A DNA stretch of 63,304 nucleotides, filler included, from Collodictyon triciliatum (GCA_043381765.1; 5 parts of 5 records of this genome joined end to end with filler, not necessarily neighbours in it), one strand, 5' to 3'; positions 15,761 to 54,489 are shown, counted from the whole stretch's first letter. The notes: generated by a model not told the origin, from the sequence alone. A program made the numbers and translations.

Positions 15761-15788
15761 GGTAGATACATGGATAAGAAAATTAATA

Positions 15789-15958
15789 AATTCATATGGG
15801 ATGATTGCTTACCCGACGGCTCCATGCTTAAAGAACTGGTCTCTCTCATTTTGCATGTCTCGGAAGTCGATGACAGAAATATGTGAAGGACTCGCTCGTC
15901 GCGAATGACAAGTTCAAGAGATTTTGGTGTTGTGTATCGTCACGGAGCAGGAACCCAC
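15789..15958 (-). pseudogene. Inverted, pseudogenised copy of the DUF4062 exon and donor of the adjacent STAND gene
   Basis: The reverse complement aligns at high identity to 17751-17920, with a CGA>TGA stop (WVPAP*R) and a 1-bp deletion in SSTF. Confidence 0.85.
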
Positions 15959-16602: not shown

Positions 16603-19600
16603 ATGAGCAGCACGCCACGAGACGTTGTGAACATGGAGGAGGTTTTTTTTGGTTACGATGAAACACTATATTAATTGCATGATTTACTTGTATGCAGCCT
16701 TTTCTTTTCTTTTTATAGATCATATAGTTTGATATAACGAATCCTTCAACCAGGGGCTTCTCGAATGGGTCAACTACCAACTCGGCAAGATCGAGATCAG
16801 TGCGAAAAAAATCCGTGATGACATGGAAGACGGCTTCTTTATTGTCTTGTTGCTGGAGCTTATCACGGGAGATCGCCTTCAGTCTCATCATTCACGTTTA
16901 TTTTTGTGATTAGGATTTTCTTTCTTCTCTTTCTCTCTCTCTCTTCCCTCTTTTTCTTCTCTTTCTATTCCTCTTTTTTTGCTGTTTCTTATCATTAGAT
17001 GAAACTGAGACTATTACATGATTCATTCTAGCCATCAACCCATCGAGGAAAAGCCCCTCATAGCAGAGAATCATGGCGCCATCCGCAGCTGGTTTGCAGA
17101 CAAGTCGGATTTTCCCAACGAGGACACTGCAGCAATTTGGAGCTTTAGTTTTAGAAGTAATTCATGCTTATCTTACCATAGCTTTTTGCTAAACAAAGCA
17201 GACAAATAAGCAAACAAAAGGTTTGGAAATATTGGATTCAAAATATATAATGCCTTTCAGAGATCGTCCAGAGAATATTGTGGTATCTCATCACCAAATC
17301 AGTGGGATACAGAGTAAAGCTTAAGGTATTTAAATATTCGCATACTGTTCATCCAATATGTGAAGAATAAATAGCATCGGCCATATAAATAGAAGCACTC
17401 TCTCGGAAGATTCCAAGAAGCCAAGAATCTGTTTGAAAAAGTCAAAGCACCTTTTCCTTTCGAAGGTGATATATTACCCGGATGCAATTTCTGTAAATAT
17501 AATAATTTACAACGATGCTGGTATTTCAATTGCCATGTCGCTCTCTAAAACACCTAAAAATATCAGGACTCGGTTTGGAAGAAAAGGGATCGACAGTTTT
17601 CATTCGCACATGCATCCTACTAGACAAGGTTGCCTTCCATATTTATTTTTGTTTTCATAGATAAGTTTATCTAGATATGGGATATTTATTTATTTTTGTT
17701 GGACAGATGAACACAATTCGAAACGAGCTAAAGGAAAGCCGAATCAAGAAGTGGGTTCCTGCTCCGCGACGATACACAACACCAAAACCTCTTGAACTTA
17801 CCATTCACGACGAGCGAGTCCTTCGCATATTTCTGTCATCGACCTTCCGAGACATGCAAAATGAGAGAGACCAGTTCTTTCAGCATGGAGCTGTCGAGTG
17901 AGTACTCATCCAAAATGAATTTTTTTCAGGTCGGCCATCCCATATAAAGTTTATGTATCGATATATCTAAACATCGTTAAAACCAAAACTTTTGAATACC
18001 ACAGGCTTAAGATTCATGCAAAGACACTGAGCTTCGAGCTTGTCTTCATCGACTTGCGCTGGGGACTCACATCCAAAGATAGCAACGAAGGATGGGTATA
18101 TTTACTTTACAATCTTCTTTTCATCATCATCTTTGTCAACAACCAACATATACCTTTATTCTATTTAGTTGCTTTATTCAATAAATACAATATTGAAAGG
18201 TTGTTATTCGATGCCTGGACTCGATTAAAAAATGCCCCTATTTTGTTTGCTCTCTTGGTGCTCGCTACGGGTGGATTCCCAACCAAAGCTCAACAGAATT
18301 GAATCTAACTGAGAGGTTTGAAAAACTGAAAGAAACCAAACCTAACGCCCACATCAACGAGGTTGGTATTGAATGGAGGTCGGAAACATGCAAGCGCTTT
18401 CCTTTCATCGAACAATTACCTGGACTGAGTGTTACAGAATATGAGGTAAGGTGACTAAAATATCAGAGCCCAGCTCAGTCAGCGTTGAAAAAAAGAAAAG
18501 ACACTGAAAACTACACTTGTTGAAATTTCCGCCACTTTAATAGATCCAATATGCTGCCATGATTTCAAAACCTGCTTGTAGTCGTGTTTTCTTTTATTTA
18601 CGGGACGAGGTTTATGCTGTCGCGCATGCAAGGTCAGAGGAAGAGAGGAAGCTCTACCAATCAGACGGCGACGAGGGTGTATGATTATACGTGATTCTGA
18701 ATATATATTTGTATCTATTATATTATCAAATTACTACTTTGGTTTGATTAATTTGTAAAATTTATCCTGCCTAGCGCCGACGCCAAGAGCTTCTGAAGGA
18801 AAAGGTCAAGGAGAAATATGGGCATTTTGTTTACAAAGAACCTAAAGAATACTCTGACTTGGTGACCCACCACCTGATTTATGCCATGAATCAAGATTTT
18901 TCCAATATAATGGTAAGATCAACGGAATCAAAACACATTATTTGATGACATTGTCAAAAGCGAAGACATGTATCTTGAATCGTAATTTATTTAATCAGGC
19001 AAGAGATCCAGAAGACCAAGCGCATCATCAATTTAAGATGCATCGCTTGGTGGGGTTCGGAGGTCGCAAATCACTCCTGGAAGAAATAAAAGAGAAGGTA
19101 TCTTTTTCATACCATATCTGAAGATTTTATGAAATAAAAAATATTTAAAGAAAATTTTCTGACAAATCAATACCTCTGCAGGCTTTGACCGGGCTAAACA
19201 GCGATGATACAGATATTATCTTGCTGGCCGCAAAGTCCGGTATAGGAAAATCCTCTTTAATGGCCGCGAGTATTCGTAATTTTGAAAGTTTGAAGAGGGA
19301 AAACCTTTGCATCTTTTACCATTTCGTCGGCTGTACAAATGTCAGCAACTATGTGGAAAAGTACTTAATTTAGAACACCATTTCCTTCTAAAATAATTTC
19401 GATGGGATTGTGCTTCTCGAAATTAAATGCCGATTAATACATGTAAGTATTTCGACTCGCTTTTGGAAATTGGTAGCCAATAAAACTCAACTCACTGATA
19501 TTGCTCGCGATTCCATGGACCCAGGTAGTCACCAGCAATTCGCTATATATCTATGTAGTTATCTGACTTCATTTTATTATCAATAGTGCATGAGAAGAAA

Positions 19601-22600
19601 GGATTACATAGTCTTTTCAAATATATTGGCGAGGAAAATCGGTAAATAAATTATTCTCTTTATTTTGTAATTTCGAGAAACAAATAAAAATATATCGCGC
19701 ATTCATTTGATAGGTTTATTGAGTTATTTGAATTTTCACTTTGATATATTTTATTATATTAATTTTTGTTTTAGCAACCGACAATATATTTTCATGATTG
19801 ATGCCATCAATCAAATACTCGCATCCCAAGAAAATCCCGCCCCTTATTTTCTGAGATGGCTTCCCAAAAAAACTCCCATGAACGTCACCCTGATTGTTTC
19901 GACAATTGATACCCATCCGTCTTGCAATGTTTACAAATGATTAAATGAAAGTATAAAAATAATCATGATTTCAGTTCCAAAAATTTCCTTATTCTACCAT
20001 ATTTCTTTTTCACCGATAAAGTTTGATTTTAAAAATCAAAAGGTATTTTAAGAATCCAAGCAGCATTGCTACAAATCAAGATATTTATAATTTTGTTTTA
20101 ACATAGAATGCCGTCGATGCTGGATTGCACGCTATTCCAGTGGCAGCACTGGAACTTGAAGAAATACAAGAAAGCTCCGTCTCTTTCTTGAAAAATTATG
20201 ATAAGTCTTTAAATGAGGGACAACTCAAAATGATTTTGGATGATTATGTCGACACTGGTAAGTTTACGCGGCAAAGAAATATTTATTATTGTATTTCGTT
20301 CTTAAAAATTATCTAAATAAGGTCATCCGCTATATCTGCGACTTGTTCTGGACGAAATCCGAGTTTTTGGTGTTTATGAAAAATTGGACTCGGAACTACA
20401 CGATTTAATTGCAACCGACGGAGTAATTGAACTATACACTTTGATTATTGATCGATGGCGTACCAAGTTCAATATAGGTTGTTTTCATAATTTTTAAACA
20501 TGTATCTTGCCATTACACATTATTCACATATTCACCGATTTTATTCACTCGGCGACAGGTGCCCCGATTGTGGACGTTGGTATGAAAGTTCTCTACATAT
20601 CTCGAATCGGCTTAAGTGAATCTGATTTGGATATGTATATGGAATACATGATCGGAAACACATTTGAACATGTAGAATGGTACCTATTTCATATTTTAAA
20701 TGTTTACATACGCATACATGAAAAGCAAACGCAAATTTTAAACATAGTAACCTCATATATGAATTCAAGGAAAACATTCTTTTTTACTCTTGTTGAATCA
20801 CTGTTTGTGCGAAATGGAAGGTAACTATCACATAATTGAATTTTTTTTATTTATTTTTGTAAAACAAACTCTTTTTAGACGAATAAAGTGCAAGTAATTT
20901 TCCATTTCCTTAAATATATGTACTTTCATCAATTGCTTTTGGAAACGACCAAAAAGTATTACTTTGGGTCCGATGATTTGATTATCTCAGCCCAAAAAGA
21001 TTATGGGACTTGGTTATACGGAGTATATTCAGAACATTTGGACGCTGATGAAGATACCATATCGGAGATATGCTACCAACTTTTAATGGGAAATTGTCTC
21101 GATTTGCTAGTAGAATACCTAAAGAATGAACATGTGAGTCATCTTCTCTTTAGTTTCTCTCTTTTTTTCATTGTTTAAAAAACTAAAACTGTCCAGGTTG
21201 TTTTAGCTATGCTAAATGGTCGGTATCGGTACGAATTTTTCACCTGCTGGAGGGTTATAAACGAAAAGGGAATTGCAGATTATAGGGATGTCTACAGTGC
21301 GCATGTTAAGGTAAAAATCAAATAATGAATATCTTGGTGTCCTTTATTTCAAAAATAGGGGCTACTCTTCGAATCTATTGGTCAAAAATAAATGCACAAA
21401 TAACAGCTAAAATGGATTTTAAAATAGTCGCTGAAAAGAGTAGGGGATGTATTGGTCGACTTCTTCCTTGAATCTTATGAGAACTCGTTTTTGAGCTCTG
21501 TGCTTCGCCAAAAAATGGCAAAGCGGCCACCCGAAAGTTAGATATCTTAAATTCTACTTGAAATATAGATACAATCAGTTTATTAAGCACCAAAATTTTC
21601 ATTGATACTAAAAATCAATGCTCATATTCATGAAATAAGTTTAATTGTGCAGAGTCCGAGGCTACTGACTACCTCATTCTGGGTCGTGTCTACAGGAATA
21701 TGCAGATGTGAGGTTTTCAATCGCAATCTTTTACAAACAGCAATACCCTACATTAATAATACATAAATTGGGGAAAATAGTTGGGACGATTCGTTATATT
21801 TTTTTGAAAAATGTCTTGCGGCCATGATAAAGGACGAAAATAGAGAAAACGACCAATTAGATGCTATAGATGACGAAATCGGATTTATTTACATTAAGAA
21901 GAATAGGTAAGGTTCCAAATTGCAGCTTATTTAATACATTTAATATTATAGAATATGCACATTATTAGCATACTCCATTCGTCCAAAAATCAAATTCAAT
22001 CTAGGCTACAAGATGCTAATGAATATTTTAAGAAGTCACTGGATTTACGAGTGAAAATATATGGAGAGAATGATATCCTTGTGGCACAGTCATATGACAA
22101 TATTGGAGATACTTTTCTGCTTGAAAATGATTTGTTTTTTTGTTGTTGATACTTTCCAATAATAACCCCGATCTAAACAGACCATTGAATACATGTCTTA
22201 TAAAGGTATGCCTGCTTTCATTTAGTTACACACAAGCTCTGTACATATATAAGAAAGCTCAAGAGATTCGTTTCAAGAAAGTTGGGCAGGATGACCCTTT
22301 GGTGGCCACTTCCCTCATAAAAATCGGAGAAGTGCATCTATCGGAACAACAGTTGATTTAATTTCTAAATGAAATATGTGTAAGCATTGATTTAATGCAT
22401 TCGATGCGCTTTTGTATCAAGGTATTCTGATGCCATAAGTTCATTCGAAAAAGCGACTTTGGTTATGGAAAAATCATTCGGGGAAAAGCACCCATATGTT
22501 GGAGATGCCACCAAGTGTATCGCTAGAGTGCTTTTAGCTGAAGGAAAGTATGTGAAATTTGTTAATATTCCAAAGGCAATTATATATTATTAAAAATACT

Positions 22601-25162
22601 GAAGCTTTTTCTTTATAATAAAAGAAAATTCGAAGCTTTGGATTTGCTGAGTAAGTCCTTAAAGATATATATTGAAACGTTGGGACCTAATCATCCAAAA
22701 GTAATTGAAACATACGATATAATTGGAAGCATGAATCATGATTTAAAGAGGTATGCTGTATATTATACAGTGGGAATTGAGAAGGACTGAAAATATTAAA
22801 TTATTTCTAAATTAAATACAAATAGATTTTATCCTAAATACTGTCTATTTTTTTTAGATATTCAGAGGCTCGAGAGGCATTCGAGAAAACTAGATTGATT
22901 ACATTCAGGACTTTGGGAAAAGAACAATCCAACTACGCTACTGCTCTTGAGAACGTTGCTCGCTCAAATTTTGAATTACAAAGGTATTCCTCTCATAAAT
23001 AATTGATGCATTGAAATCAGTTGAGAAGACTATTCAATGAAGTTGTCCGGAAATATAACAAACTCTAATTTACACGGCCCTTTAGTTTTGCGCAGACAGT
23101 TGAATGTTTAAAGGAATCCACTGGTATTCGAAGCAGAACAAAAACTGTTATGATGCTTAATGATTCGAACGAAATAGAGAATATGATTTGGCTCATGAAA
23201 GATAAGAAAGAGTTCAAGTCTGTCATTTTACTCTATCAAAACTTGATAAACCTATTTAAAACGCAACAAGCCACCGATTTCCCTGGGATGTGGAATGCAT
23301 GTCAACAAATGAACGCAATATTCAAGGATAATTACTTGCACAGGGAGGCTGTAGAGTTTTGGGGTGAAATGCAAAGTTGGTTCAAAGATAAATTGAAATG
23401 GTCTCATGATTGGTCATTATTGTCTTGTGAACTTGCATCCTATCACTACAAAAAATTAGGCATGTGTAAAGATGTCGTCGAGCTCACTGGTGTTTTGGAT
23501 TTCATCTGTGTTATTTTCGAGAATCAAGACATAGCAAATCCTTACAGCCGTGAAGAAATCATCAAAGTCCTTTTTGATATCGTCCGCATTTCAAAATCAG
23601 AGCTATCGATGGCAGAATCTGCGTCAAAAGCGGTTACCATTTTGAATTTCATGAAGGTTTCTTTTGAAAAGGTGGACTTTACAGGCATTAGAATTCCAAA
23701 TGCAAATTTGACCAATTCTATAATGAATGGAGCAAACTTTAGTGATGCTGACCTTAGCGGCGTCAATTTTACCAATGCGAGTCTTGATTATTGCATATTT
23801 AATGGAGCGAACATGAATAATACACAATTTGGGTTTTCGAATGGCAGGCTTAAAGGCCATGAAAATCACGTGCTTACGGTTTGCATCGTGCATGGCCCAG
23901 ACGGAAAGTATTGGCTTGCATCTGGTAGTGAGGATGAGACAATTGTCTTGTGGAGTTTGACCACCGAAAGGCCGGTGAGGAGGATAGAGGGCAGCCTTGG
24001 TAACATATTTGCTATTTGTGAGGTACGCGGACCGAACGGTGAGTACTGGATGGCGTCTGGAAGCTCGAGCAAACTTGTTCAGGTGTGGGACGTAGTCTCA
24101 GGAACACAAGTAATGAGACTGGCTGGGCATCGAAGCTACGTCTTTGGATTGTGCTCTTTAGATGGACCCAACGGCGAAAGATGGCTAGCCTCTGCCAGCG
24201 CTGATAAGACCATTCGAATTTGGGATATGAAAACACAGAAGCAAGTGAAGGTTCTGGAGAGGCACACGGATTATGTCCGTAGTGTTTGTAGTGCTCACGG
24301 CCCCAGTGGAGAAAAATGGCTTGTCTCTGGAAGCGAAGACGAGACCGTCATCATTTGGGATTTGACGACATTCGATGCGCTTCGTATCTTGGAAGGGCAT
24401 GCAAACTCAATCAACAGCATTTGCACAATTGATGGTCCTGGAGGTGAGAAGTGGTTGGCGTCGGCAAGTGCAGACAAGACCGTTCGTATCTGGGATTTGG
24501 CTACAGGTGACCATGTAAAGACGATGCAGCGACACACAAACTTTGTTTGGAGTGTTTGCAACGTCCAAGGACCGAACGGAGAAAAATGGTTGGCCTCTGG
24601 AGGATGGGACATGGTCGTGTGCATCTGGGACTTGGCGTCAGGGAATCAGGTGAAAACGCTTGAGGGCCACGATGACGGAGTTTGGACCCTGTGCAGTATC
24701 GATGCGCCGAACAAGGAAGTATGGCTTGCCTCTGGAAGTGGGGATTTCTCAATAAAGCTATGGAATATTTCGTCTGACCGTGATATAAGCGGCACAAAGG
24801 ATCAAGTGGTAGTGTATACCGTAGGACAAAGCCCGCAAGGGAGCCAGCAATGTCGTGAGGAAAATCTGGGTGATGACTTTGAAAAAACTGAGTTTATGCA
24901 GGTTTCATTCCCCAGGATACTTTGTGGTGATTCCGCAAATATAGATGGTGTCAAGGGCTTGAGCGCATACAATAGAAATCTGCTGTATTCGGTCGGTGCA
25001 ATTTCTTTGGAAGAAAGCTTTGTCAAGTTTTGTGAGAAAATCAAGTTCACCAAAGAACAGGCCTTTGAGATGGTCAAATGCTACGAAAACGGATTGGGTG
25101 TGGACAAAAACCTCGAAAAATCCAAGGAGTGGGCCCAAAAAGCAGCCAGTTTTGACCAGTAA
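16603..25162 (+). CDS. Multi-exon NLR-like STAND protein: CH domain - DUF4062 - NACHT/AAA NTPase - TPRs - pentapeptide repeats - 7xWD40 - Sel1
   Basis: Exon 16754-16895 GLLEWVNYQL..DDMEDGFFIVLLLELITG (CH domain). RVLRIFLSSTFRDMQNERD and FIDLRWG (DUF4062, NPHP3/TEP1 type). Walker A AKSGIGKSS, FYHFVG, Walker B YIFMIDAINQ, GHPLYLRLVLDE. Kinesin-light-chain-like TPRs (VAQSYDNIG). A phase-2 splice at 23086 runs in frame into ORF 23150-25162 with pentapeptide, WD40 and Sel1 motifs. Confidence 0.85.
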
Positions 25163-33371: not shown

Positions 33372-33434
<63 letters not shown>

Positions 33435-35332: not shown

Positions 35333-36070
35333 CGTGTGCTCCTCCATCTAAATTCAAACTGGGACTATGCAAAGGTATTCGCACCATACTAACTCCATTC
35401 ATATGTTTGCTTCGAAAACTTTTGGAAAAAAAAATAAACAATACAAACTCCCTCACCCTCCTGCCAAGGAAAAAACCAATAATAATAATTCATTCTGGAA
35501 GTAGGCCTCTCAACCAAATCATCGTAAAGATGATGCCAACCCCACCAGTTCAATCAAGAGCACTTTTCGTCCCATTTACTTTCCTTTGCTCCCAAAAGAA
35601 GAGAAAAGAAAGAAACTCTATCCAAAACTTCATAAAATGAAGCCACAGTTTAGAGCGTCAAATAAATGCTGAGGCACTTTTTCTTCGCTTCTAAGGTGTG
35701 ATTATGTTTCGATACTGCGATTTGCCTGTTAAGCGGAAAGGAAGAAAGGAAACAGAGGTACAAAATCGCTTGTCCGCAGGCAAACTCGCCAAAGTAGCCA
35801 ACCGACATCGCAAGATACGACACCCAAGCCCAGAAGGGTTCGATCCAAGTCGCAACACTTTCTCTGAAAACCTTTTGCGCTGCCTGCCTCGTCTGATCGT
35901 TGCGTGTCGTCTGCCACTGCTTCGATCAGTCCGCCGATCAAAGAGAGCAGCGAGTCAGACCTTCAAACCCCGATCACAGAATATGCCCAAGCGGTCACAA
36001 GAATAAATGAGTTATTTTATTTCATGATTAATAATTAAAAAAAGAAAAAACGTGCATACTAGCAGAGCCC

Positions 36071-37534: not shown

Positions 37535-37579
<45 letters not shown>

Positions 37580-39567
37580 CTCTCTCTTCTCTCTCCCTCT
37601 CTTTTTCTCTTTCTCTCTTTTTCTCTTTTTCTCTTTTTCTCTTTTTCTCTTTTTCTCTTTTTCTCTTCTCTCTTCTCTCTTCTCTCTTCTCTCTTCTCTC
37701 TTCTCTCTTCTCTCTTCTCTCTTCTCTCTTCAACCATATCAAGTCATGGCGCTAAAGCAAAAACTATACAACTAGTGAGGTATACATTCTACGAAAGGTT
37801 CGTGTCCGACTTTAAGGCCTCTCACAATGACGATTTATTGACACTTCAGTTGATTAGCAGCCCCCACCACCTGAACGAAAACGATCTAGCAGTTGCCTTT
37901 AGAACGCATCGATATGTCGTTCGTGTCTCTTCCTTTTCCATGCACCTACTCGCAGGTTTTCTTCATGACTCCAAATTCATGAAGATATTGGGCATTCTGA
38001 ACCAGCATGTAGACATTAAAGGTTTTCTTGAATGCAATCACATATATATATATAATACACATATAAGTGCTCCTAATTTAGTACTTCTTTTAGCCTTCTT
38101 TATTTTTCCTGTGTTTCAAGTAATCATACGCACCCATGCGCTTCAATCATTTGAAGAATATTTATTGATTTTCTTTTTAGTTAATGAATCCCAAGGGCAA
38201 GGCTCCGCTCTCGAAGACGAAGGCAGCCTTCAATCTAATCAGCTAGCTACTGGACTTCCAGTTAATCAAACTGCGATTCACTGGGGCACTATTGAGGATG
38301 CCTCTATTGTATCTCCTGCACTGCTATCCAAGCGGGATTTCAAATATGTACACGAAACTTTATCATATATACAACTAATGCCATTTTATTCAACTAACCT
38401 AAAGTGTCGAATTTTCTCTTTTACCTGCCTTCAATCGACACTATACTTCCTAACAAAATGCTAAAATTAATATAGGATTCAAATTTATCAAAGAAATTGA
38501 AAAAAGATACTGCTATAGAGAAGCAAGGAGAATTGCCGAATGTGCCTTTACCTAAGCGGTTGGAGCATTGTTTTTATATAAGAAATCATAATTGTGTATC
38601 ATAAATAGATTTCAAATGCTTATTCATCACATAGTATTTCCTATCTCTTCCTCCCATTACTTGTTCGATTGGTCATTAATGGGCCCACAACTACAGCAAC
38701 TGTGAGTTGGAATCAAAAGTGATTGATGAGTTGAAGCAGAAGATAAATGCCAGTCCAGGATCTTTGCCCAGCATATGCTTCCATACTTTCCTCAACACTT
38801 ACCACGGGTAAACTCAAATACTCCAACTCACACTTTTATCTCCATACTTCCTTTTCAGATATAATTCAAATTAAGCTGCTCTCGTATCTTTTCTATTTAT
38901 TTTTTTTACCACGCGTGAAATTATGTGAAAGATTTTATATATTCACTTATGTTTGCATGTGCATACAGCCTTAATACAGTTGAGTTGTCAAAGGACGCCA
39001 CGTACGTAGTCGCCGGATTCGCAGATTCTACTGTCAAGTTCTGGAACTTGGAAAACTCCACTGACGGAGGTTTACCCATGCACATACCTCAACTCTAACG
39101 AGTCTTGTTGAAATGGAAAAAGTCATTCGATAAAGAGATTAACCTCATATAGACAAAGGCAAACTCAACAAAGAAGAAGCTGCGGTTTGTCACACATTGA
39201 TTGGGCACAGTGGACCTGTGTTTGGTGCACATCTGAGCCCCGATAACCAATATATGGTCACTTGCTCCGAGGATGCAACAGGTAGTGAGATAGTTATTTT
39301 CCCTAGACTACAGCAAGACACTTCGAATTGTATATTGAGCGCTGCAAATAATTATAATAATGATAATATATTCTTCAAAACAAGAAATGAAATGCCCGAT
39401 TGAACTTTTTAATACCGCACTTGGGTATATCGATAGTTCGACTTTGGAGTTTGCCAATGAAAAAGAATCTGGTGGCATATCGCGGACACAACTACCCGAT
39501 ATGGGACGTGCAATTCAGCCCAGTCGGTTACTATTTCGCTAGTGCATCCCATGACAAGACAGCAAGG
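36071..39567 (+). CDS. TAF5: TFIID subunit 5 (3'-partial, multi-exon)
   Basis: LisH ([20 protein letters not shown]), NTD2 ([35 protein letters not shown]), [11 protein letters not shown], and WD40s [28 protein letters not shown] and [30 protein letters not shown]. His- and QS-rich N-terminal extension. Confidence 0.92.
37453..37730. repeat. CT-rich compound microsatellite in a TAF5 intron
   Basis: (CTCTTTTT)n, (CT)n and (CTCTCTT)n. Confidence 0.9.
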
Positions 39568-39682
39568 TTATTGAATAACTTTCTCTTTTTCTCTCTTTTT
39601 CTCTCTTTTTCTCTCTTTTTCTCTCTTTTTCTCTCTTTTTCTCTCTTTTTCTCTCTTTTTCTCTCTTTTTCTCTCTTTTTCT

Positions 39683-39782: not shown

Positions 39783-39978
39783 AAAAAGAAAGAAAAAGAA
39801 AGAAAAAGAAAGAAAAAGAAAGAAAAAGAAAGAAAAAGAAAGAAAAAGAAAGAAAAAGAAAGAAAAAGAAAGAAAAAGAAGGAAGAAAAGAAAGAAAAGA
39901 AAGAAAAGAAAGAAAAGAAAGAAAGAAAAGAAAGAAAGAAAAGAAAGAAAGAAAGAAAGAAAGAAAAGAAAGAAAGAA

Positions 39979-40022
<44 letters not shown>

Positions 40023-40078
40023 AAAGAAAGAAAAGAAAGAAAAGAAAGAAAAGAAAAGAAAAGAAGAGAAAGAAAGAA
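39783..40078. repeat. (AAAG)n-type purine tract at contig start
   Basis: Direct inspection. Confidence 0.95.
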
Positions 40079-40152
40079 ATAGGCCTTATCATTTTAATTC
40101 AGTCTTTGGTTGTTGCTGTTGTTGTTTTTCAATTAAAGTTACCTATCAATAG

Positions 40153-40174
40153 GAATCGAATAAAGGAAAAAAAT
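40153..40174 (+). mobile_element. Micro-insertion GAATCGAATAAAGG-An with 16-bp TSD that duplicates a splice donor
   Basis: AGTTACCTATCAATAG occurs at 40137-40152 and 40175-40190. Confidence 0.75.
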
Positions 40175-40180
40175 AGTTAC

Positions 40181-43100
40181 CTATCAATAGACAAGTAGAC
40201 CTTTGATAGATTGTTTAAAGCTACAGCCACGAAGGGATCATTAAGTCCGAGATTCTTCTCTAGAAGCCTTCTTGCCTTTTCGTATGACTCAGCTGCCTCA
40301 AAATACCTTGATTAAGGAAAATTTACTATTAATCAAGATCGAAAATTTGGTACGATATAGTTTGTTTCATTATATATTTTGGAAAAAATAAATAAATAAT
40401 AATAAAAAAAGAAAAATAAAGAGATATCGTTGTCTCAGTAAACTGTATTGAAGGTGAATAGGTATCATAGTAATGGCACGATATATGGAAAATGAACTTC
40501 TTTTCCGCATAAAGTATATGTCCTAGGCTTTGCAGAGAAGTTGCCATAATTGGGTGGTCGTGGCTAGCTTTTTTCAAGCGTATCTCCATCGACATATCAT
40601 ACTGAGTTTTTGCTGCGCCAATCCTAACGCAAGAATAAATGCTCCATAAATATTACTTCTTTTAACTTATTAGGTATATAATATAATTGAAAACCAACAA
40701 AGCTGAGATACGTACATGTTTTGTGTGAGATATAGATTTCCCAGAAGATCGTAGGATGCGGCTGTTTGGATCTCTTGTGGTCCAAAGGTTTCCTTTCGAA
40801 TATTGAGAGCCTTCTCGTATTCGATTTTTGCAGAATCATATCTGTAAGAAGAACATAATTTTTTCCTTCATATAATTTTTTCTGGATACTCTCAGCAATT
40901 TAGAAGAATATAAAAAGACTTTAAATTTTTGATATAATTTTTCTAGATACTTGGAAGTACTTCTAGACTTACTCTCCCTCTTTTTCATATAAGTAGCCTA
41001 TCTCATCATGAAGGTGGGCAATAGATTCATCTGATTCAGGCTCGTATTGTTGTTTCAAAGATAAACACATCTGAAAGCATTTAATTGCTTCTCTCCAACT
41101 AGAAACAAAAGAAAACATTAAATAAATTAAATATGCTTACATCGGAGATAAGAGCTCGATATATATAATGTTTTGAATTACTTATATAGACTCCTATAAA
41201 CTTTTCCAAGATTCATGTACTCCAGAGTTTTGGATTCTGTTTTTTTTTTAAAAAAAAAATTATATGTTGTGGCTGTGCAGGATTTTTAATTAAATTTATT
41301 CCAGAACTGCGTTACTTTGAATCGAATAAAGGAAAAAAAATCCAGAGATGCGCTAAAATCTAAAATGACCTTCAGTGGTCCTTCTAGATATTCTTTGGAG
41401 TAGTACTGAGACAAGATAAGATATTTCAAAGGATTCCAAGAAAAAGTCTACTAGTGTATCACCGACCTTATCCAAAGACTGTATCGAGATTTTGTTATAA
41501 ATGGTTGTATTTGCGTTGTAGTTTCTTTCGAATTAAAAAAGTAACATAATGCAATCAATATATGACATGTAGCGAGTCAACAAGACTACTTTAATGGTGC
41601 CTCTATATGTATCCTTGTAATTTCCTATTCCTTTTGAGTGCAGCACTTTCCAACATCGGAAAAATTCATAGCGATGTGGTCCATTCAACATCTTAACGAT
41701 GACCTTTAATTTTGTTCGTTTGAGTTTTTCAGAAGATAACATAGATATTCTAATAATAATAATAATAATAATAATAGAGTAAATGGTAAGCCTTTTGTTG
41801 GATTGTCATATTTAGCATAAAACATTATACATTGTCAATCTTGAGATATTCTATGAGAAGCTCAAAGCTCTCTCCTTTGGAAAGCTGATAACATATCTCT
41901 GACACGATATCTTCGTCGGCATCCTCGTCAGTAGAGTATTTTCCGTACAACCAAATGCCATATGCTTTATGCATTTCCACTTTGTTTTTAGCCTCTTTGT
42001 AAAAATGGCTCTCTGTAGTGTCCATAAGCAGTTGATTGAAGTACATATAGCTATAAAAAAATATTACTAAACTTTATTGTTTTAAAAAGGTTAAATGTAT
42101 TATGAGAAAAACATATATATTTATGTGGTTTGAATTCTAGGCAGATTACCGTCCGTTATGAACGAATAAGTATTCCACTATCGTGAAGAAAAAGGATTTC
42201 CTGGTAGTAAAAAGTTTTAGCAAACCATTCCAACTAACCATGTACATCAACTCGGTTAGCTATGCTAGAGTATATGATTGCGAATTTTTACCACTTAGAA
42301 AAGTCAAAATTGTCTCCCATGGATGCTTCAACAAACTCATCCAAGTCCTCCTCACTCAGGCCAATACGTGATATAAATAGGACTTTCATGGATATATCTA
42401 CTATTTGTGAATCTAAAAGAGTATAAATTATTGAATTGAATGAAAGTACAATTGACAAGAAAATATTAGGGCAAATGTGTTTGCAGTGAATAGTACCTCT
42501 AAGATTCCACTTGATTTGCCATCGATTAATAATATACGAAAATAACTCAACAACTCCTTTTTTTGAAAGAAGTTTATCCATTTCAGCCTCTAGCTCGCTC
42601 TCTGGTCTTGCATTAACACCAAAGGCTTTGATTTCATCCAAAAGGATTCTCAGGTATAAAGGAAATCCTATTAAATTTTATGTTCGATTTTTCAGTTTTT
42701 CGTGTTATTAAGCGACTTTTTTCAGCTAAATAAATAGTAGAAAATTCATTATAATATCTCATTTCGAATTTTTCCGTATGATTAAAAGGTAAGCTCATTT
42801 TAAATGATATCAAGAGCCTTTTTTTTTAATCTTTAGAGATTTACTAGCTTTATGAAAAAATTCTAGTAGTAATTTGTAATTATCTTTGTAGTGTTGAAAG
42901 CATACCTGTGTCGCCGTGCCCCTCTAATATCATCCTTACTTGGCCTTTGCTCAGAATCTTATCGTATCGCTGAAGAAAGAGAGATGTACTTTCCTCTGCT
43001 TCTTCTTTGGCCAATTTATTCAGAAAAATAGGAATCAATCCTTGATCGATGGCTGCCTGCTCGAAGGAATTTCCCCACAAAGAGAAGAAAAAATTATTCG

Positions 43101-46100
43101 AAGACTTCAAGGGCAAATTAATACATGACAGGAGTTGTTTTTTTTTTCATTTATTCGATTCAAAGGAACACATGATAAGGGTCAAAGTTTTGAGAGTAGA
43201 ACTTTGAATCTTCATTTGATTTTCTTACCTTACAAGAGGGATGAGAATCGATGGTGGAAACCACCACTGCCACATTACTTGGTGCTCTCTTTGGTAGCCA
43301 ATGTAGTAAATGGGGCATAGGAAATTTACGCGATGGATGGATTTGATTAAGTCCATCGATAAGAATGATCAGCTTGTCTCTATTGTTAGTTAATTTTATG
43401 AATTTTTTATGCTATAATTTTTGTGGATATTTTACCGAATTTTTTTATTAAAAAAATAGAGGATAGAATCATTATCTTGGAAGAGGGTTTATTTCAAGGT
43501 TCAAATGAAAGAAAAAAGTGTTCTTGCCTGTTCCTTTGCTTGAAAACCTTGATGATGTCTTCAATATCTCCGCCTTATGAGTTGCAATTTATTAAAGTTA
43601 AAACAGACACAAATGTAAAAAAAAAAAAGGTTTCCAAAATTATTAAAATTCGCTTTGAATAATGCCCAAATGTAACACGTAATCTACCTTTTGAGATAGT
43701 TTGGTTTGATTTTATAATGCCGAATTTTCCCACAAATTTCCATAAACGAGTGAATATTCTATATAATTAGGGTTGCTTAAATTTTAACCATGTTTGGATT
43801 ATGGTTTGACATGCTTCGAAATTGAACAGAAACGACAAAAACAACAGATAATGATAACGATAATAAAGGCGCATTGTCTTATACTAACGTTTCAACGTAG
43901 CTTCGAGTATTCGTGCATCCGACAAAGTGATAGAATATATTGGTTTTCGAGTCTCCCGTTCTTTCAAGCTCCCGTATGGTGGCGGCGATGATGGATGATT
44001 TTCCGAAGCCAGGTTGAGCTGATATTAGTGTGATCATTTGATCGAGGTTTGTCAACTGCTCAGTGACCTAAGTTCGATATTGAGTTAGAATTGTCAAATC
44101 TTTATCGAATCGCTTTCATATTCGTATATATATTCATTAAAGTGTGATAAGAATTAAGAAGGAAAAAATACTTGATTGCTGATTTCTTTCAAAATTCCTG
44201 TTCGTCCTCCAAACCCAGTGAGTCGGTGCATTTTGTACTGATAATGAGCCAAATCTTCTGGGTCATGAATCTATCCCCGTTGAGATAAATTTGGTCATAT
44301 TACACAAAATAATAGGGTGAAAAAGTAAGCAATATTGTTTGGATTTGAATCGAATGAAGTGGGGAACAATATTGTTTGAAATGGAAACAAGTTCAATTAT
44401 ACTCGTTTCTAGTAGTACAATTGGCTTCTTTGGCAAGAGTTCAATTTTAAGTACCTCCTTAGAATTAAAGTCCCTGGAGATGGCGTACATAAGATGTGAT
44501 GTGATCATCTCAGAATAGTTCTTGGGGGTTTGGTAGGTATACACACCATACCGGTCTCTAATTTTTGCCTTCAGAGCAATTTGTTTTGTTTTCTAAACCG
44601 CGTGCATCATGGGTTAGGTTGTAGGGTTGTTCGAAAGTAAAAATATGAAGTTGATATTTTCAGTCTCCCTTGGTGTATAAATGTATGTCTATATATTTGA
44701 ATGTAGAGTAGGAGGAATCATATCTTACGTTTTCTTCACTTTCTACCGTGTAATTGTGGCTCTCTATTTCGCTCTCTGCGTTGGTGCTCTCATATTCCTC
44801 ATCTCTAAAGTAGAAGAAAGCTCTACTACAAGATGGGTTCTCCATCAAGGCGGCATAATGAACCTTTGATGTACGAGTTCTTTATAAGTAACTATCTTTT
44901 AAGGAATACACAGACATGCTATTGATTACGTTATAAAAGAATTGTGAGACGAATACATGTATTCGGAGCTATGAATTACTAATTATATAAATATGTGATA
45001 TTAGAGTGGTTGAAAAATACAAGAGTAAAAGGTACCTCATATTCAGTGACACTGAGACCGGGTATGGAATCTATAAAAGGATACCGGGTGTTGGTATCGC
45101 TACGCCACTCTACATGCACGTCTTTCATTGTGGCATCTATTTTGGTAATTTTCAAATCTTCCAATCGCTCTGCTTTGTTCAATTCTGTTTTGTTTGGATC
45201 AGGAACCCATCCATAACGAGTTCCAAGAGAACAGACAAGGTATTGACATTTTCCGATTGAATCTAAGCAACGAATTACCACCTACAATTATGATATTATT
45301 TCAGCTGTTGCATCCTCTTTGAATGTAATAAAGTGAGAAAAAAAAAGTTGTCGCATTCGTCTGACTAGAATCACCCATCCATTGTCAAAACATAACTTTC
45401 ACAAGTAAATAAATTACCCATCCTTCATAGCTTTCCATGGATTTTAGTCCCCAGCGCAAGTCGACAAAAACTAGTTCGAGGCCCTTAGACTTGGAAAATC
45501 TCTTCAATCTACACATTACATTTTAGAGATGGTGAATAAAAGTCGTACCAATAAGAAGCTAAAAAATTACATACAAAAGGAAAAATTTAAAAGAAATATA
45601 ATTCAAAACATCTCAACATTTTGTCTGTATCGAAACTTGATGGGATATCAACTTCATAGGGAGGATCATTTCAAAAAGAATGTCCATGCTTTGAGTCTTA
45701 CTCGACGACTCCGTTCTGAAAAAAGAAGTTTCTCTCTTTTTGCATGTGTTGAAAAGTTGAGGAGAGATAAACTCGGACGACACGCTGATCAAAAACAGAC
45801 TGGTCGAGCGGTTTCGGGGTTTCGTAGCGCTGAGGAGCAGGTATCCATTTTTTTAGCACTCGATTTTTATCGTTTCCTTGTAACATTTGAACCTAAAGAA
45901 TATTTGGCTGAATTGAGTGATGATTCCTTGGGAGTTGTTATTCTGGTTGTGAAAGAAAAATTTTGAAGGAAAGGAGAAACAGTGGCTCGAGTTTGTCCTT
46001 TTTAAATTGATACCTTATCCACCATAATACAAGTTCGGATCAACACAACAGATCCCTTCTCCTTTGGATGAAAGTCTACAAAATTTTCGTTAAAAAATCA

Positions 46101-47529
46101 AAGTTGCGTTTCAAAAATAAATATACTTGAAAAAAATATAAATATGAATTTAATTACCTTCGAAGAGAAACGGTGTTGACATAATTGTGAATAACGATTT
46201 TGCATTTTCATATCTTTCTTCAGATGTTTTCTGGTAAGAAAAAAATCATTTAATCGATTATTATAGAACTAGACGTTCTTGCTTCAAAAGCAATCAAGAC
46301 TATAACATGTGTATCAACGTTGAAGGGCCGTAAAAAAACTACGCAGGTACATACACCAAAGCTGAACTCAGTCTTGACGCTTGATTGGATAAGAAACCAG
46401 AGGACGTGTTGTATGACATCTTATAAGAAAGGCGTTTTTTGTTTGCATTGAGGGAAATGCGGATAAAATCAGAGAAAAGAATGTTGAAAAAATACAACTC
46501 TGGGCACTCTCAATATAAGGTAGGGAGACGGATATTTTTATCTTCAGAACAGCTGATATATATAATAATTTTAATACGAGTGGGGATATATGTATGTAAA
46601 GGCAATCTGTTATAAAATATCGACTACTAACCATCAAAACTGTCATGAATTGGGTAACTGTCAGGGTGATCCTTTGGCTGTTTGTACACTTTTGTATGAA
46701 GCCAACGTCGAATAATGTCTTGATTTTCCTTCACTAGACCCTCCTGGGAAATAGGTTGCTCCCTATAACCAAGCCATATGAGTGTGCAATAAAAAAAAAC
46801 CCCCCTCAAAACCAACACGAATTTCATCGAATAGCCCATAAAACAGCCGTAGGTAATGAAAAGATATATCAATAGTAATCATAATAATAACAATAATAAT
46901 ATCGAATGGAGGAAAATAAAAAAAATAAATCAAAGAGAAAATTAAAGAGACGCATATAATAACGATAAAACTTCTTTTTTTTCTTACGGAAGAGCGCGAG
47001 AATGATAATTGCCAAGCTGCCCCTGCGCCACCACATCTATAAGCATGGCAAGCAGAAAGCCGTCGCGCATGTCGTTGTGAATATCCCGGGCACGAAGCCC
47101 TATCTTCTCCAACTGGTAGTTTGACCAGACTAGCAGGGCCTATGAAAAGTGTGAGGAATATTCATAAGGCACCCTGAATATTAAAAAAAAAAATTGAAAA
47201 CAACGGAGGAAAGCCACGGTACACCATATAAAGAGTAGGCAAAACGCATGTAAGTACTTTAATAAAGAAACAAGAAAAATAGAGGTAATAATAATAATAC
47301 TACTACTAATAACGCTAGAAGAGAATAAGGAAAGGGAAAGGGAAAGGGAAAGGGAAAGGGAAAGGGAAAGGGAAAGGGAAAGGGAAGAGGTGGCCACCTT
47401 GTCGACATCCTCGGCCGACTCAGGGGACTGCGGCATGGCCCGGCCTATGCGGATCTGCGCCTCGTGCGATAGCTGCGTGGGCGCCCGAGCGAGCGTGTCA
47501 AACAGAGCCTCAGTCAGTGGACCGATCCG
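40181..47529 (-). CDS. Paralogous NLR-like STAND protein: CH - DUF4062 - NACHT/AAA - TPRs (3'-partial; start uncertain, possibly up to about 48200)
   Basis: ALLVWSNYQLEKIGLRARDIHNDMRDGFLLAMLIDVV (CH domain), RVVRVYLSSTFQHMQKER, FVDLRWG, Walker A AQPGFGKSS, IFYHFVGCTN, Walker B LIILIDGLNQ, and TPRs (DHPIMATSLQSLGHIL). Exons correspond closely to those of 16603-25162. Confidence 0.85.
41315..41340 (+). mobile_element. Micro-insertion CTTTGAATCGAATAAAGG-A8 with degenerate 15-bp TSD
   Basis: TCCAGAACTGCGTTA versus TCCAGAGATGCGCTA (12/15 identical). Confidence 0.65.
43136..43166 (-). mobile_element. Micro-insertion, reverse-strand copy (CCTTTGAATCGAATAAATG-An)
   Basis: Same core on the minus strand with degenerate flanking duplication CCTTATCATGTGTT / CCTGTCATGTATT. 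Confidence 0.55.
44342..44366 (+). mobile_element. Diverged micro-insertion (TTTGAATCGAATGAAGTGGGGAA) with 12-bp TSD
   Basis: CAATATTGTTTG occurs at 44330-44341 and 44367-44378. Confidence 0.55.
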
Positions 47530-47710
47530 CAGGATGAAAAAGCAAGTAACTCCCCTCCTCGCAAGCACAAAAACACACACATATATATATACACATACGC
47601 GCACGCATACACAAAGAAACACAGTATATTCTCGCTGGGAGTGCGTATATATATACATACGCACATTCTTATGGATGCAGATACACATATTGATAAATAG
47701 AAAGAGATAT

Positions 47711-47727
47711 TCGAATAAAGGGGAAAA
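47711..47727 (+). mobile_element. Shortest micro-insertion (TCGAATAAAGGGG-An) with 16-bp TSD
   Basis: AAATAGAAAGAGATAT versus AAATAGAAGGAGATAT (15/16 identical). Confidence 0.6.
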
Positions 47728-48252
47728 AAATAGAAGGAGATATGGAAATGGGTATGCATGTGCTGGGCGAATTACAGACACGCGCGCGGAAGGCACGGGC
47801 CGATCACCGTGCACCCGCCCGCACGCACGCAATCACAGTCGCGAGCCGATCACCGTGCGGGTCCAATCGCAACCCCCGGCGTGGCTCTCCCACACAGACT
47901 CAGACACAGGCACATACACAACACAACACCGCCCGTGCGCCTGTGGACATCCTCCTCGCTGGTGTGATGCTTGGGGCCGCCTGCAGGCACGGGAGGCACC
48001 TATGTGTTAGAACGCCTGGAATGGCAAATCTCAGTGCTATGTGTTTGCACGTATATATATCCCTGTGCTTAACTGGCAGGTGTTGTGGGCGCGTGTCCCT
48101 CTTTGCCTTCTCTGCATTTACCTTTGGTTTATTTGGTGGTGTTGTTGTTTTTCTTTTTGTTTTTCTGGAATAGGCGCATTCGCGTGCGGCTGTTCGGTAG
48201 GCGTTAAGCAATTAAATAAAGAAAAAAAAAAGAGGAAATCCTATAATTATTG

Positions 48253-48283
<31 letters not shown>

Positions 48284-48990
48284 TGTTTTTTTGGTACTGT
48301 ATTTTATTTTTGACTTGTTGAATGTTTGGTTGAAACGGAAACTTGGCACGAGCTCTGTTGTCTTTTTGTTGTGATTGGCTTTCTGCTTTTTGTTTTTCAG
48401 CCCGTTTTATTTTTTTAAACCTCTGCTTCTTGTGTGGCCAAGTATATATGGAAATTGGCCGGGTAATATTCGCACAATTAACAGATTGGTTATTTAGGAG
48501 ACATTGGTGGGAAATATCCGGGGCGTGGGCTAGACTTGTTCTTATATATACTAATTGTTCAGGTTCATGCTATTATTGATACAATAAATTATATATATGA
48601 ATTTTACAAACTAGGAATTGTAAAAGTATATAATTTCCACAATTGTAAAAGCAAAGAGCCCTTTATCTAGCGATTAATAACAAAGAAAATGTATTCAAGT
48701 CAAATATGGAAATTATAATATAAATACTTTTTACATTTATATTAAGCTATTTAATTCATATATATCGTTTTCTTATATTATATAATTAACTTATAATATA
48801 TATACACAATTCTCTTTCTTCCCACCACCCTGATTTGTGTTTACTGAGATCGTGGCCATCCTGCGATCAGCCAACACGCATCCTTTTCGCTTCCGGTCTA
48901 TTGAAAGTAAATCACTGAATATAGGACATAAAACAAAGGAATAACAAATATAAAAAGTAGCATATTACTCATAGTGGACTTGCTAGGCTT

Positions 48991-51900: not shown

Positions 51901-51991
51901 TCGCCTTCGTCCGGAATTAATCATGGTTCATGAAAACGTTCGCCGTGTTCTTCAACTCCAGCAAGGAGAATACTACTGCACGATAGCGTAG
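48991..51991 (+). CDS. Multi-exon TPR-repeat protein ending in CaaX (CTIA)
   Basis: Canonical TPRs: ALECYLSALKMQPGDAKVNNNTG, AHFNMASALHKNSMIDEAIAHYEEALK, ALNNLGLILETQGNVERACDNYRRAVDINP. Last exon 51794-51991 ends QQGEYYCTIA*. Confidence 0.8.
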
Positions 51992-52886: not shown

Positions 52887-52922
52887 TGACAGACGTCTCT
52901 TTTTTTTTTTTTTTTTTTTTTT

Positions 52923-54083: not shown

Positions 54084-54144
<61 letters not shown>

Positions 54145-54441: not shown

Positions 54442-54489
<48 letters not shown>

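What the first reader, a model, noticed from the sequence alone, without database searches (positions are those of the whole stretch)
40181..47529. Second paralog on an unrelated contig suggests an expanded CH-DUF4062-NACHT-TPR family
Seen: the same domain order and matching exon boundaries (NMEE|GLLEWVNYQL versus DVDK|ALLVWSNYQL; KKWVPAPRRYTTPKPL versus KKWIPAPQRYETPKPL; FYHFVGCTN in both) with substantial protein divergence. Two of five arbitrary 13-kb contigs carry a member, plus one pseudo-exon. Inference: the family is multi-copy and evolving by birth and death, as NLR families do.
Basis: partly seen in the sequence, partly recalled or inferred. Interest (0 to 1): 0.7.

Follow-up and report, generated by a model that had tools for sequence, protein, structure and literature searches.

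The report
Paralogous NADase-headed NLR-like sensor genes
Two diverged copies of a large immune-receptor-like gene, plus a dead fragment of one copy, lie on separate contigs of an unidentified freshwater eukaryote, and the nearest sequenced relative, the protist Diphylleia rotans, expresses at least 17 such genes, so this is a member of a multi-copy family of a recently described kind.

Summary
On the minus strand, 47436..40181 carries 28 GT-AG exons with an open 1124-codon frame. They encode CH, DUF4062 (now called NIR, a TIR-like NADase), NACHT, a helical region and four TPR units. The gene (B) runs off its contig at the 3' end.

A paralog (A) lies on the plus strand at 16603-25162, with 31 exons and 1896 aa. 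It has the same order plus six TPR units, pentapeptide repeats and WD40. A and B are 46% identical, and 19 of 28 exons have the same length. An inverted 175-nt dead copy of A's exon 7 lies at 15785-15958.

The "expanded family" reading is partly supported, and only indirectly, because no whole genome is held.
- The 12 best of 1.84 billion representatives are all Diphylleia rotans transcripts.
- 17 distinct D. rotans genes, at most 70% identical to each other, belong to the family.
- A and B group together against five D. rotans paralogs, which argues against one-to-one orthology.
- A third environmental variant exists.

dN/dS cannot be estimated because synonymous sites are saturated.

The kind (NIR-NACHT NLR-like proteins such as TEP1, NWD1/2, TTC41 and NPHP3) was described in 2026 preprints. 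The CH head and the tandem TPR-pentapeptide-WD40 tail are a variant architecture. Interest is moderate.

The parts
40181..47436 (-). Gene B: 28 visible exons, 1124 codons, cut at the 3' end by the contig end. It encodes CH-NIR(DUF4062)-NACHT-helical-TPR.
   Evidence: Spliced alignments to P0002 and to A; assembled CDS is open and all junctions are GT-AG.
47398..47436 (-). B exon 1: ATG plus 12 codons (MPQSPESAEDVDK), followed by a GT donor.
   Evidence: same 39-nt length as exon 1 of A.
46355..47139 (-). B exons 2-4: calponin-homology (CH) domain.
   Evidence: Pfam CH 21.2 bits on exon 2, below the cut-off of 26. The homolog P0002 scores 34.1 bits and matches the CH domains of plectin and alpha-actinin.
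44729..45892 (-). B exons 7-10: NIR / DUF4062 TIR-like domain. GLSVTEYE lies at 45036-45059 and carries the putative catalytic Glu.
   Evidence: Pfam DUF4062 on exon 9. P0002 460-544 aligns to the TEP1 NIR chain 11gz_A at E 3e-15, and GLSVTEYE aligns to GRSVTEME. Translation checked.
43229..44067 (-). B exons 13-16: NACHT NTPase core, with Walker A GFGKSS at 43993-44010. The structure of exons 14-15 is uncertain.
   Evidence: Pfam NPHP3_N and NACHT pieces; Walker A translated; several in-frame solutions exist for exons 14-16.
41182..43059 (-). B exons 17-24: post-NACHT helical region, conserved with A and with the D. rotans proteins.
40181..41098 (-). B exons 25-28: four TPR units, one per 126-nt exon, all between phase-2 introns. 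The last donor, GTAACT, is followed by a microsatellite and the contig end.
   Evidence: TPR_12 hits on two of them.
16603..25162 (+). Gene A, the paralog: 31 exons, 1896 aa. It encodes CH-NIR-NACHT-helical-6 TPR exons-linker-pentapeptide-WD40.
20770..20914 (+). A exon 20/21 junction. The acceptor expected from B and from all D. rotans paralogs is AA, not AG (20912-20913). An in-frame bypass (donor 20792, acceptor 20877-78) would replace the conserved VESLFVRNGR motif.
15785..15958 (-). Pseudo-exon: an inverted partial copy of A exon 7 plus 28 nt of its intron. It is 90.9% identical and carries an in-frame TGA and a frameshift.

Best explanation
Region 40181-47436 (minus strand) is the 5' three-fifths of an intact-looking, intron-rich gene (B) for an NLR-like STAND protein. 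Its order is a calponin-homology head, a NIR/DUF4062 TIR-like NADase domain, a NACHT NTPase, a helical region and a TPR array; the rest is lost at the contig end. Gene A on another contig is an old paralog (46% identity, intron positions kept) that continues into pentapeptide repeats and a WD40 propeller. Both belong to a family that is multi-copy in the lineage. The nearest sequenced relative, Diphylleia rotans, expresses at least 17 diverged members with different heads (CH, RRM, coiled coil) and tails (TPR alone, or TPR plus WD40), and duplication went on separately in the two lineages. The likely mechanism is inferred from TEP1, bacterial Avs2-NIR and APAF-1-type STAND proteins. The TPR/WD40 repeats hold the NACHT switch off. 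A bound ligand allows nucleotide exchange and oligomerisation. This brings NIR domains together and switches on NAD+ hydrolysis, giving a signalling or cell-death output. The CH domain may tether the protein to the cytoskeleton. Shown here: gene structures, domain order, conservation of the catalytic Glu and Walker A, paralogy, family size in D. rotans, and tree topology. Inferred: NADase activity, the activation mechanism, an immune role, and the copy number in this organism.
For: Open 28-exon and 31-exon GT-AG models. 19 of 28 exon lengths are identical and identity is 46%. Pfam pieces in the same order in both genes. The homolog P0002 passes the Pfam cut-offs for DUF4062 (42.9 vs 24.7), CH (34.1 vs 26), NACHT (27.4 vs 26.7) and nSTAND1, and it aligns to B over 998 aa at 46% and to A over 982 aa at 51%. 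The TEP1 NIR chain 11gz_A matches at E 3e-15, with SVTE-x-E aligned to TEP1 SVTEME, where the preprints place the catalytic E1008. GLSVTEYE is present in A, B, P0002, P0112 and the environmental variant. Walker A is GFGKSS. On family size, the 12 best of 1.84 billion representatives are all D. rotans, and there are 17 Trinity genes with at most 69.9% identity. On the tree, (A,B) has support 100/98, the CH subfamily 100/100, and AU tests give p 0.005 and 0.002 against alternatives; the quick 19-row tree gives the same picture. A pseudo-exon is present. There is one TPR unit per 126-nt phase-2 exon, in 4 of 4 exons in B and 5 of 6 in A, a layout that lets repeats be gained or lost in frame. dN is lowest in NIR (0.36) and highest in TPR (0.61) and CH (0.65).
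Against: No genome is held, so only two genes and one fragment are actually seen in this organism. A and B are ancient duplicates with saturated synonymous sites. This fits a stable old family as well as it fits birth and death. The per-exon Pfam scores for B are all below the gathering cut-offs except TPR_12 on one exon, 32.6 vs 30.1. Domain calls for B therefore rest partly on homology to P0002. The preprints report that human NWD1, NWD2 and NPHP3 showed no NADase activity, so a conserved Glu does not prove activity. The A+B clade could be helped by shared composition: the quick tree flagged both rows as compositionally odd, and the groups tested were named after the tree was seen. A's acceptor lesion may mean that A is not functional. 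Nothing shows that the five pieces come from one organism beyond similar composition, with tetranucleotide r of 0.87-0.95.
Confidence: 0.7

Rival explanations
1. A and B are members of a small, old and stable set of housekeeping STAND proteins, like the single-copy animal NPHP3, NWD1 and TEP1 with ciliary or vault roles. On this view they are not a fast-turnover immune-type repertoire.
For: A and B are 46% identical with saturated synonymous sites. Intron positions and exon lengths are conserved, and both frames are open. The window shows no recent intact duplicate. The preprints describe the animal relatives as having largely unknown, not clearly immune, functions.
Against: There are 17 diverged paralogs in D. 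rotans, with shuffled heads and tails. Duplications are independent in the two lineages. A 91%-identical dead exon copy lies next to A. A third variant exists in environmental contigs.
Confidence: 0.25
2. The two genes are not paralogs within one genome. The window's pieces come from a mixed (metagenome-type) assembly, and A and B belong to two related organisms.
For: The only public runs found to hold part of B are freshwater metagenomes, and no genome is held. A and B are about as far from each other (45-46%) as each is from the D. rotans proteins (44-51%).
Against: The five pieces have similar tetranucleotide make-up (r 0.87-0.95). Codon usage of A and B correlates at r 0.89, and GC3, intron GC and intron sizes are alike. 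The piece sizes (13166, 13158, 13158, 13140) look like neighbouring entries of one size-sorted assembly. None of this is proof.
Confidence: 0.1
3. One or both copies are decaying pseudogenes rather than working genes.
For: In A the conserved acceptor before the YMYFHQ exon reads AA. The only open splice path removes the motif VESLFVRNGR, which is kept in B and in the D. rotans paralogs P0002, P0007, P0008, P0009 and P0012. A dead exon copy lies 650 nt upstream of A's ATG.
Against: B has no stop, no frameshift and only GT-AG junctions over 28 exons. A has none over 31 exons and 5691 nt. dN is well below saturation in every domain. A single base could be an assembly error or an allele.
Confidence: 0.15

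Closest known systems
Diphylleia rotans transcripts of EukProt EP00002 (P0002 = P039414; P0112 = P032243; also P0009, P0012, P0114)
   Same: CH-DUF4062-NACHT order (precomputed Pfam). The tail of TPR, linker, pentapeptide, WD40 and C-terminal motif is as in A. They share the roughly 27-residue insert in the NIR domain with A, B and the environmental variant. Identity to A and B is 44-51%.
   Different: They come from a different organism. They have long N-terminal extensions before the CH domain (P0002 about 255 aa). P0112 has many more WD40 repeats (2619 aa). They form their own clade, so none is a one-to-one ortholog of A or B. No published description of them was found.
Human TEP1 (vault/telomerase protein; NIR domain structure 11gz_A)
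   Same: A NIR/DUF4062 domain directly before a NACHT NTPase, followed by repeats. Sequence match is E 3e-15 over 85 residues, and the SVTE-x-E motif with the catalytic Glu is kept. The preprints show that TEP1 is an active NADase (passages read).
   Different: TEP1 has TROVE and vWA domains in front and only WD40 behind, with no CH and no TPR. It is single-copy in animals. The NIR domain here carries an extra insert.
Animal TTC41 and NPHP3 (NIR-NACHT-TPR) and NWD1/NWD2 (NIR-NACHT-WD40)
   Same: The same three-part logic. Exons of both genes hit the Pfam models NPHP3_N and TPR_NPHP3. The preprints name these as NIR-bearing NLR-like proteins.
   Different: A combines TPR and WD40 in one protein and adds pentapeptide repeats and a CH head. 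The animal genes are single-copy. In the tree, the window and D. rotans clade sits on a long stem (1.22) away from the mollusc, coral and amoeba relatives sampled. NWD1, NWD2 and NPHP3 showed no NADase activity in the preprints.
Bacterial NIR-STAND defence proteins (PsAvs2-NIR and DUF4062-NACHT-TPR proteins)
   Same: DUF4062-NACHT-TPR order. Many bacterial and metagenome proteins match at 24-28% identity. The preprint shows NAD+ depletion that depends on the same Glu.
   Different: They are prokaryotic, intron-less, have no CH head, and share only 24-28% identity. They lie outside the eukaryotic clade in the tree.

Membership tests
NIR / DUF4062 TIR-like NADase domain | Match to Pfam PF13271 at or above its gathering score. 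| tested here: met
   A exon 9 scores 27.8 bits against a cut-off of 24.7. B exon 9 scores 22.7 bits, which is below the cut-off because one exon holds only part of the domain. The full-length homolog P0002 scores 42.9 bits.
NIR / DUF4062 TIR-like NADase domain | Sequence likeness to a solved NIR domain. | tested here: met
   P0002 460-546 matches TEP1 chain 11gz_A 6-92 at E 3.4e-15. B is 46% identical to P0002 over 998 aa, including this part. B exon 9 alone found nothing.
NIR / DUF4062 TIR-like NADase domain | Catalytic glutamate (TEP1 E1008, PsAvs2 E108). | tested here: met
   The profile alignment puts GLSVTEYE opposite TEP1 GRSVTEME (a weak second stretch). Both Glu residues are present in A and B. 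Which of the two Glu is E1008 depends on the chain numbering, which I could not check.
NIR / DUF4062 TIR-like NADase domain | NAD+ hydrolysis. | not testable with these tools
   This needs an enzyme assay. The preprints found TEP1 active but NWD1, NWD2 and NPHP3 inactive.
NACHT / STAND NTPase | Walker A P-loop GxxxxGK[ST]. | tested here: met
   GFGKSS at 43993-44010 in B and GIGKSS in A.
NACHT / STAND NTPase | Match to Pfam NACHT or a related STAND model at the gathering score. | tested here: inconclusive
   B exons score NPHP3_N 22.4 (cut-off 24.8) and NACHT 18.6 (cut-off 26.7). A scores NPHP3_N 19.5. The homolog P0002 scores NACHT 27.4 (cut-off 26.7) and nSTAND1 32.0 (cut-off 27.1). Spliced proteins could not be handed to the Pfam tool.
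Calponin-homology domain | Match to Pfam PF00307 or to solved CH domains. | tested here: inconclusive
   Single exons score 21.2 bits in B and 18.7 in A, below the cut-off of 26. P0002 scores 34.1 bits and matches the CH domains of plectin and alpha-actinin at E 1e-5.
Expanded NLR-type repertoire evolving by birth and death | Many paralogs in one genome. | not testable with these tools
   No genome is held. The window shows 2 genes and 1 fragment. As a proxy, D. rotans has 17 distinct genes.
Expanded NLR-type repertoire evolving by birth and death | Lineage-specific duplication rather than one-to-one orthologs. | tested here: met
   (A,B) has support 100/98. The five D. rotans CH-type genes form a clade at 77/95.7. 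AU tests give p 0.005 and 0.002 against A or B alone joining them. Caveats are composition and groups named after seeing the tree.
Expanded NLR-type repertoire evolving by birth and death | Pseudogenes and recent duplicates. | tested here: inconclusive
   There is one dead exon copy, 90.9% identical, and one suspect acceptor in A. The window holds no recent intact duplicate.
Expanded NLR-type repertoire evolving by birth and death | Diversifying selection in the sensor repeats. | tested here: inconclusive
   pS is 0.74-0.89, which is saturated, so dN/dS is undefined. dN is highest in TPR (0.61) and CH (0.65) and lowest in NIR (0.36).

The most novel reading that the evidence does not exclude
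Diphylleid (CRuMs) protists carry a large, lineage-specifically diversifying repertoire of NADase-headed NLR-like receptors, numbering tens of genes per genome. In these genes, swappable heads (CH, RRM, coiled coil) and exon-modular TPR/WD40 sensors are shuffled. This would be an independently expanded innate-immune-type receptor system in a deep-branching eukaryotic lineage, linking bacterial NIR defence to eukaryotic cell-autonomous immunity.
Probability: 0.3. Interest if true: 0.65.

Novelty: new variant of a known kind. Interest (0 to 1): 0.42.

Why it matters
NIR (DUF4062) was shown to be a TIR-like NADase only in 2026. It is used by bacterial anti-phage systems and by human TEP1, and it sits at the head of many eukaryotic NLR-like proteins whose roles are unknown. 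A protist lineage in which such genes are numerous, diverged and modular would be a natural place to ask two questions: whether eukaryotic NIR-NLRs act in immunity, and what they sense. Each TPR unit sits in its own 126-nt exon between phase-2 introns, and heads and tails vary between paralogs. The CH head also suggests a link to the cytoskeleton that the preprints' main texts do not mention. The finding as given (a second copy on another contig) is by itself modest.

Tried and rejected
- **Whole-genome census:** not possible, because no G000 is held.
- **Scan of metagenome contigs** with alignment A2: 122 pattern matches, none confirmed by tblastn.
- **Taxonomic placement** with the TAF5 NTD2 exon (37439-38461): 8000 candidates scored, none at E<=0.001. 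The organism is therefore placed only through this gene family.
- **Sequencing runs:** no RNA holder listed. The two runs are freshwater-metagenome contig sets of one study with small shares (0.10 and 0.05).
- **Laying those runs on piece 4:** only short pieces, mostly 151 nt, and several parts without cover. They give no information on B's 3' end, its splicing or its expression.
- **Diverged pieces in those runs:** 52 nt with 9 differences at exon 19 and 72 nt with 14 differences at exon 8. They may be other family members or other organisms. I do not count them.
- **Rfam and tRNA scans of the window:** 0 matches each.
- **Earlier notes of this scan** on this genome or on look-alike sequence: none.
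- **B exon 9 alone against solved structures:** no meaningful hit.
- **The 930-aa WD40 exon at 26910-29699** as a possible missing tail of B or a third member: only generic WD40 likeness, 25-29%. Not assigned.
- **dN/dS:** undefined.
- **Representative search:** it was meant as a one-exon profile, but HMMER built 1042 positions from the two full-length rows. Short exon-sized fragments from environmental contigs could therefore not rank among the 150 listed.
- **Copy number from 'two of five contigs':** rejected, because the window was singled out after reading and the genome size is unknown.
- **Supplements of the two bioRxiv preprints,** including Table S5 with the EukProt hits: closed. I cannot say whether the D. 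rotans genes are listed there.
Full report
**Layout of the window.** The window is five pieces separated by paired N runs: 1-13166, 13267-26424, 26525-39682, 39783-52922 and 53023-63304. The first four sizes fall slowly (13166, 13158, 13158, 13140), as in neighbouring entries of a size-sorted assembly. All pieces are AT-rich with microsatellites and short GT-AG introns. Their tetranucleotide make-up is alike (r 0.87-0.95). No whole genome is held for the window.

**The observation.** Every quoted peptide is at the stated place. I wrote a protein-to-genome spliced aligner and used the one full-length database relative, P0002, as guide. I then refined the models by hand and by aligning each gene to the other.
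- Gene A (plus strand, 16603-25162) has 31 exons and a 5691-nt frame with no internal stop, giving 1896 aa. All junctions are GT-AG.
- Gene B (minus strand, 47436 down to 40181) has 28 exons and 1124 open codons, all GT-AG.
- B ends in phase 2 at a donor GTAACT, followed by a microsatellite and the contig end. B is therefore cut, and its C-terminal part is unknown.
- 19 of 28 exons have the same length in A and B, including the 39-nt first coding exon. Protein identity is 515 of 1109, or 46%.
- The structure of B's exons 14-16 is uncertain, because several in-frame solutions exist.

**Domains.**
- Single ORF pieces of B hit Pfam CH, DUF4062, NPHP3_N, NACHT and TPR_12 in that order (6 of 15 pieces).
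- Pieces of A hit CH, DUF4062 twice, NPHP3_N and TPR_12 five times. These are 9 of the 11 A pieces; the call held 13 pieces, and its 2 extra B pieces gave no hit.
- A's last exon hits Pentapeptide (49.2 bits) and WD40 (164.8 bits).
- Most single-exon scores are below the gathering cut-offs, because each exon holds only part of a domain. The spliced proteins could not be handed to the Pfam tool.
- The homolog P0002 aligns to B over 998 aa at 46% and to A over 982 aa at 51%. It passes the cut-offs for DUF4062, CH, NACHT and nSTAND1.
- P0002 also matches the solved NIR domain of human TEP1 (11gz_A) at E 3.4e-15, and CH domains of plectin and alpha-actinin at about 1e-5.
- A profile alignment puts GLSVTEYE opposite TEP1 GRSVTEME. 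That motif is at 45036-45059 in B.
- The Walker A loop GFGKSS is at 43993-44010.
- Each TPR unit is one exon of 126 nt between phase-2 introns, in 4 of 4 exons in B and 5 of 6 in A; the sixth is 129 nt.

**The pseudo-exon and a lesion in A.** Positions 15785-15958 are an inverted copy of A 17751-17925. This covers the 3' 147 nt of exon 7 plus 28 nt of intron. It is 90.9% identical over 175 nt and carries an in-frame TGA and a frameshift. Because intron sequence is included, it is a DNA-level duplication. It is the only such repeat in the window besides the 66% A/B match at exon 9. In A, the acceptor expected before the YMYFHQ exon reads AA, not AG. The only open path uses a cryptic donor and an upstream AG. 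That path would replace the motif VESLFVRNGR, which B and the D. rotans paralogs P0002, P0007, P0008, P0009 and P0012 keep. This may be an assembly error, an allele, a non-canonical site, or early decay.

**Relatives.**
- A word-based search with B's exon 9 found 2 proteins among 25 candidates. One was an unnamed environmental fragment and the other was P0002 of Diphylleia rotans, EukProt EP00002.
- Searching with P0002 residues 440-1245 gave 99 hits among 7999 scored candidates. The six best after P0002 itself are D. rotans. The next hits are 24-30% identical proteins from bacteria, metagenomes, a clam, an amoeba and others.
- An exhaustive HMMER search of 1.84 billion representatives gave 13412 hits at E<=0.001 and 2870 at E<=1e-30. 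The 12 best are all D. rotans. Scores then fall to a plateau near 300 bits.
- In all, 17 Trinity gene identifiers were found. Taking one protein per gene, 135 of 136 pairs overlap by at least 150 aa and the highest identity is 69.9%. They are therefore 17 different genes.
- Their architectures vary: CH or RRM or coiled-coil heads, TPR-only tails, or TPR plus many WD40 repeats, with P0112 reaching 2619 aa.
- P0012 and P0009 share A's tail of TPR, linker, pentapeptide, WD40 and C-terminal motif.

**Trees.**
- A careful tree (14 rows, 967 columns, LG+G4) gives a CH-type subfamily at 100/100. It holds A, B and five D. rotans genes.
- Within that subfamily, A and B form a clade at 100/98 and the five D. 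rotans genes form a clade at 77/95.7.
- AU tests reject the best trees that hold A alone (p 0.005) or B alone (p 0.002) with the five.
- A quick mixture-model tree with outgroups agrees, with (A,B) at 98.
- A and B therefore arose after their lineage split from D. rotans, and D. rotans duplicated its own copies. There is no one-to-one orthology.
- Caveats: both window rows were flagged as compositionally unusual in the quick tree, and I named the groups after seeing the tree.
- The environmental fragment (P0005 and cluster mates; Logan and JGI/IMG contigs) has the same intron position and the subfamily-specific NIR insert. It groups weakly with A and B (84/89 on 116 columns), at 70% identity to A and 61% to B. 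It is a third paralog or a relative's ortholog.

**Rates.** Synonymous sites between A and B are saturated (pS 0.74-0.89), so dN/dS cannot be given. dN is 0.36 in NIR, 0.44 in NACHT and the helical region, 0.61 in TPR and 0.65 in CH.

**Where the DNA occurs.** Two freshwater-metagenome runs of one study hold 151-nt contigs with 0-2 differences to B's exons. The same or a very close organism is therefore present there at low depth.

**Literature.** Two 2026 preprints were read as passages found by term search.
- Both show that DUF4062 is a TIR-like NADase, called NIR.
- It acts in bacterial defence (PsAvs2, Vulcan, Vesta, Swarozyc).
- It is active in human TEP1, dependent on E1008.
- One preprint found thousands of hits in EukProt v3, mostly at the N-terminus of NLR-like proteins. 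The mammalian members are NWD1, NWD2, TEP1 and TTC41, with NPHP3 near the threshold.
- NWD1, NWD2 and NPHP3 were inactive in their assays.
- The words calponin, expan-, paralog and CRuMs do not occur in the main text of 10.64898/2026.09.04.749371, and calponin does not occur in 10.64898/2026.05.01.722283. Their supplements are closed.
- Full-text searches for Diphylleia plus NACHT, and for calponin homology plus NACHT plus TPR plus NLR, found nothing relevant.

**Verdict.** The family is clearly multi-copy and duplicates lineage-specifically in the nearest sampled relative. The window adds a dead exon copy and a third environmental variant. The copy number in this organism, selection on the repeats and any immune role remain untested. 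The kind of protein is known. The CH head and the combined TPR-pentapeptide-WD40 tail make it a variant architecture.

Noticed in passing
window 26910-29699 (+): A single 930-codon open exon at the start of piece 3 encodes 13 or more WD40 repeats and ends in a hydrophobic, TM-like tail. It shows only generic WD40 likeness (25-29%) to the tails of A and the D. rotans proteins, and its upstream exons would lie beyond the contig start.
   Followed up: partly
window 20770-20914 (+): Gene A's expected splice acceptor before the YMYFHQ exon is AA instead of AG. An in-frame bypass exists but would remove a motif conserved across the family.
   Followed up: partly
window 36035-39682 (+): A TAF5-like gene (LisH, TFIID NTD2, WD40 exons) runs off the end of piece 3 into a microsatellite.
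   Followed up: partly
window 31558-33108 (+) and 33455-35329 (+): A 517-codon ORF with a Ser/Thr/Tyr protein-kinase domain is followed by a 625-codon ORF with no Pfam match.
   Followed up: no
window 9713-12052 (-): A 780-codon ORF with a glycosyltransferase family 92 domain lies in a stretch of 53% GC, well above the 32-36% of its surroundings.
   Followed up: no
window 13267-15700: A GC-rich (about 50%), strongly T-over-A skewed stretch upstream of gene A has long open frames in several frames. It has no Pfam match, no tandem repeat and no copy elsewhere in the window.
   Followed up: partly
window 48961-50707 (+): Exons with TPR_11, TPR_2 and TPR_12 hits lie upstream of gene B on the opposite strand. 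They probably belong to a separate TPR gene.
   Followed up: no
window 58290-59387 (-) and 57666-58286 (-): Long ORFs of 366 and 207 codons in a 50-53% GC stretch of piece 5 have no Pfam match.
   Followed up: no
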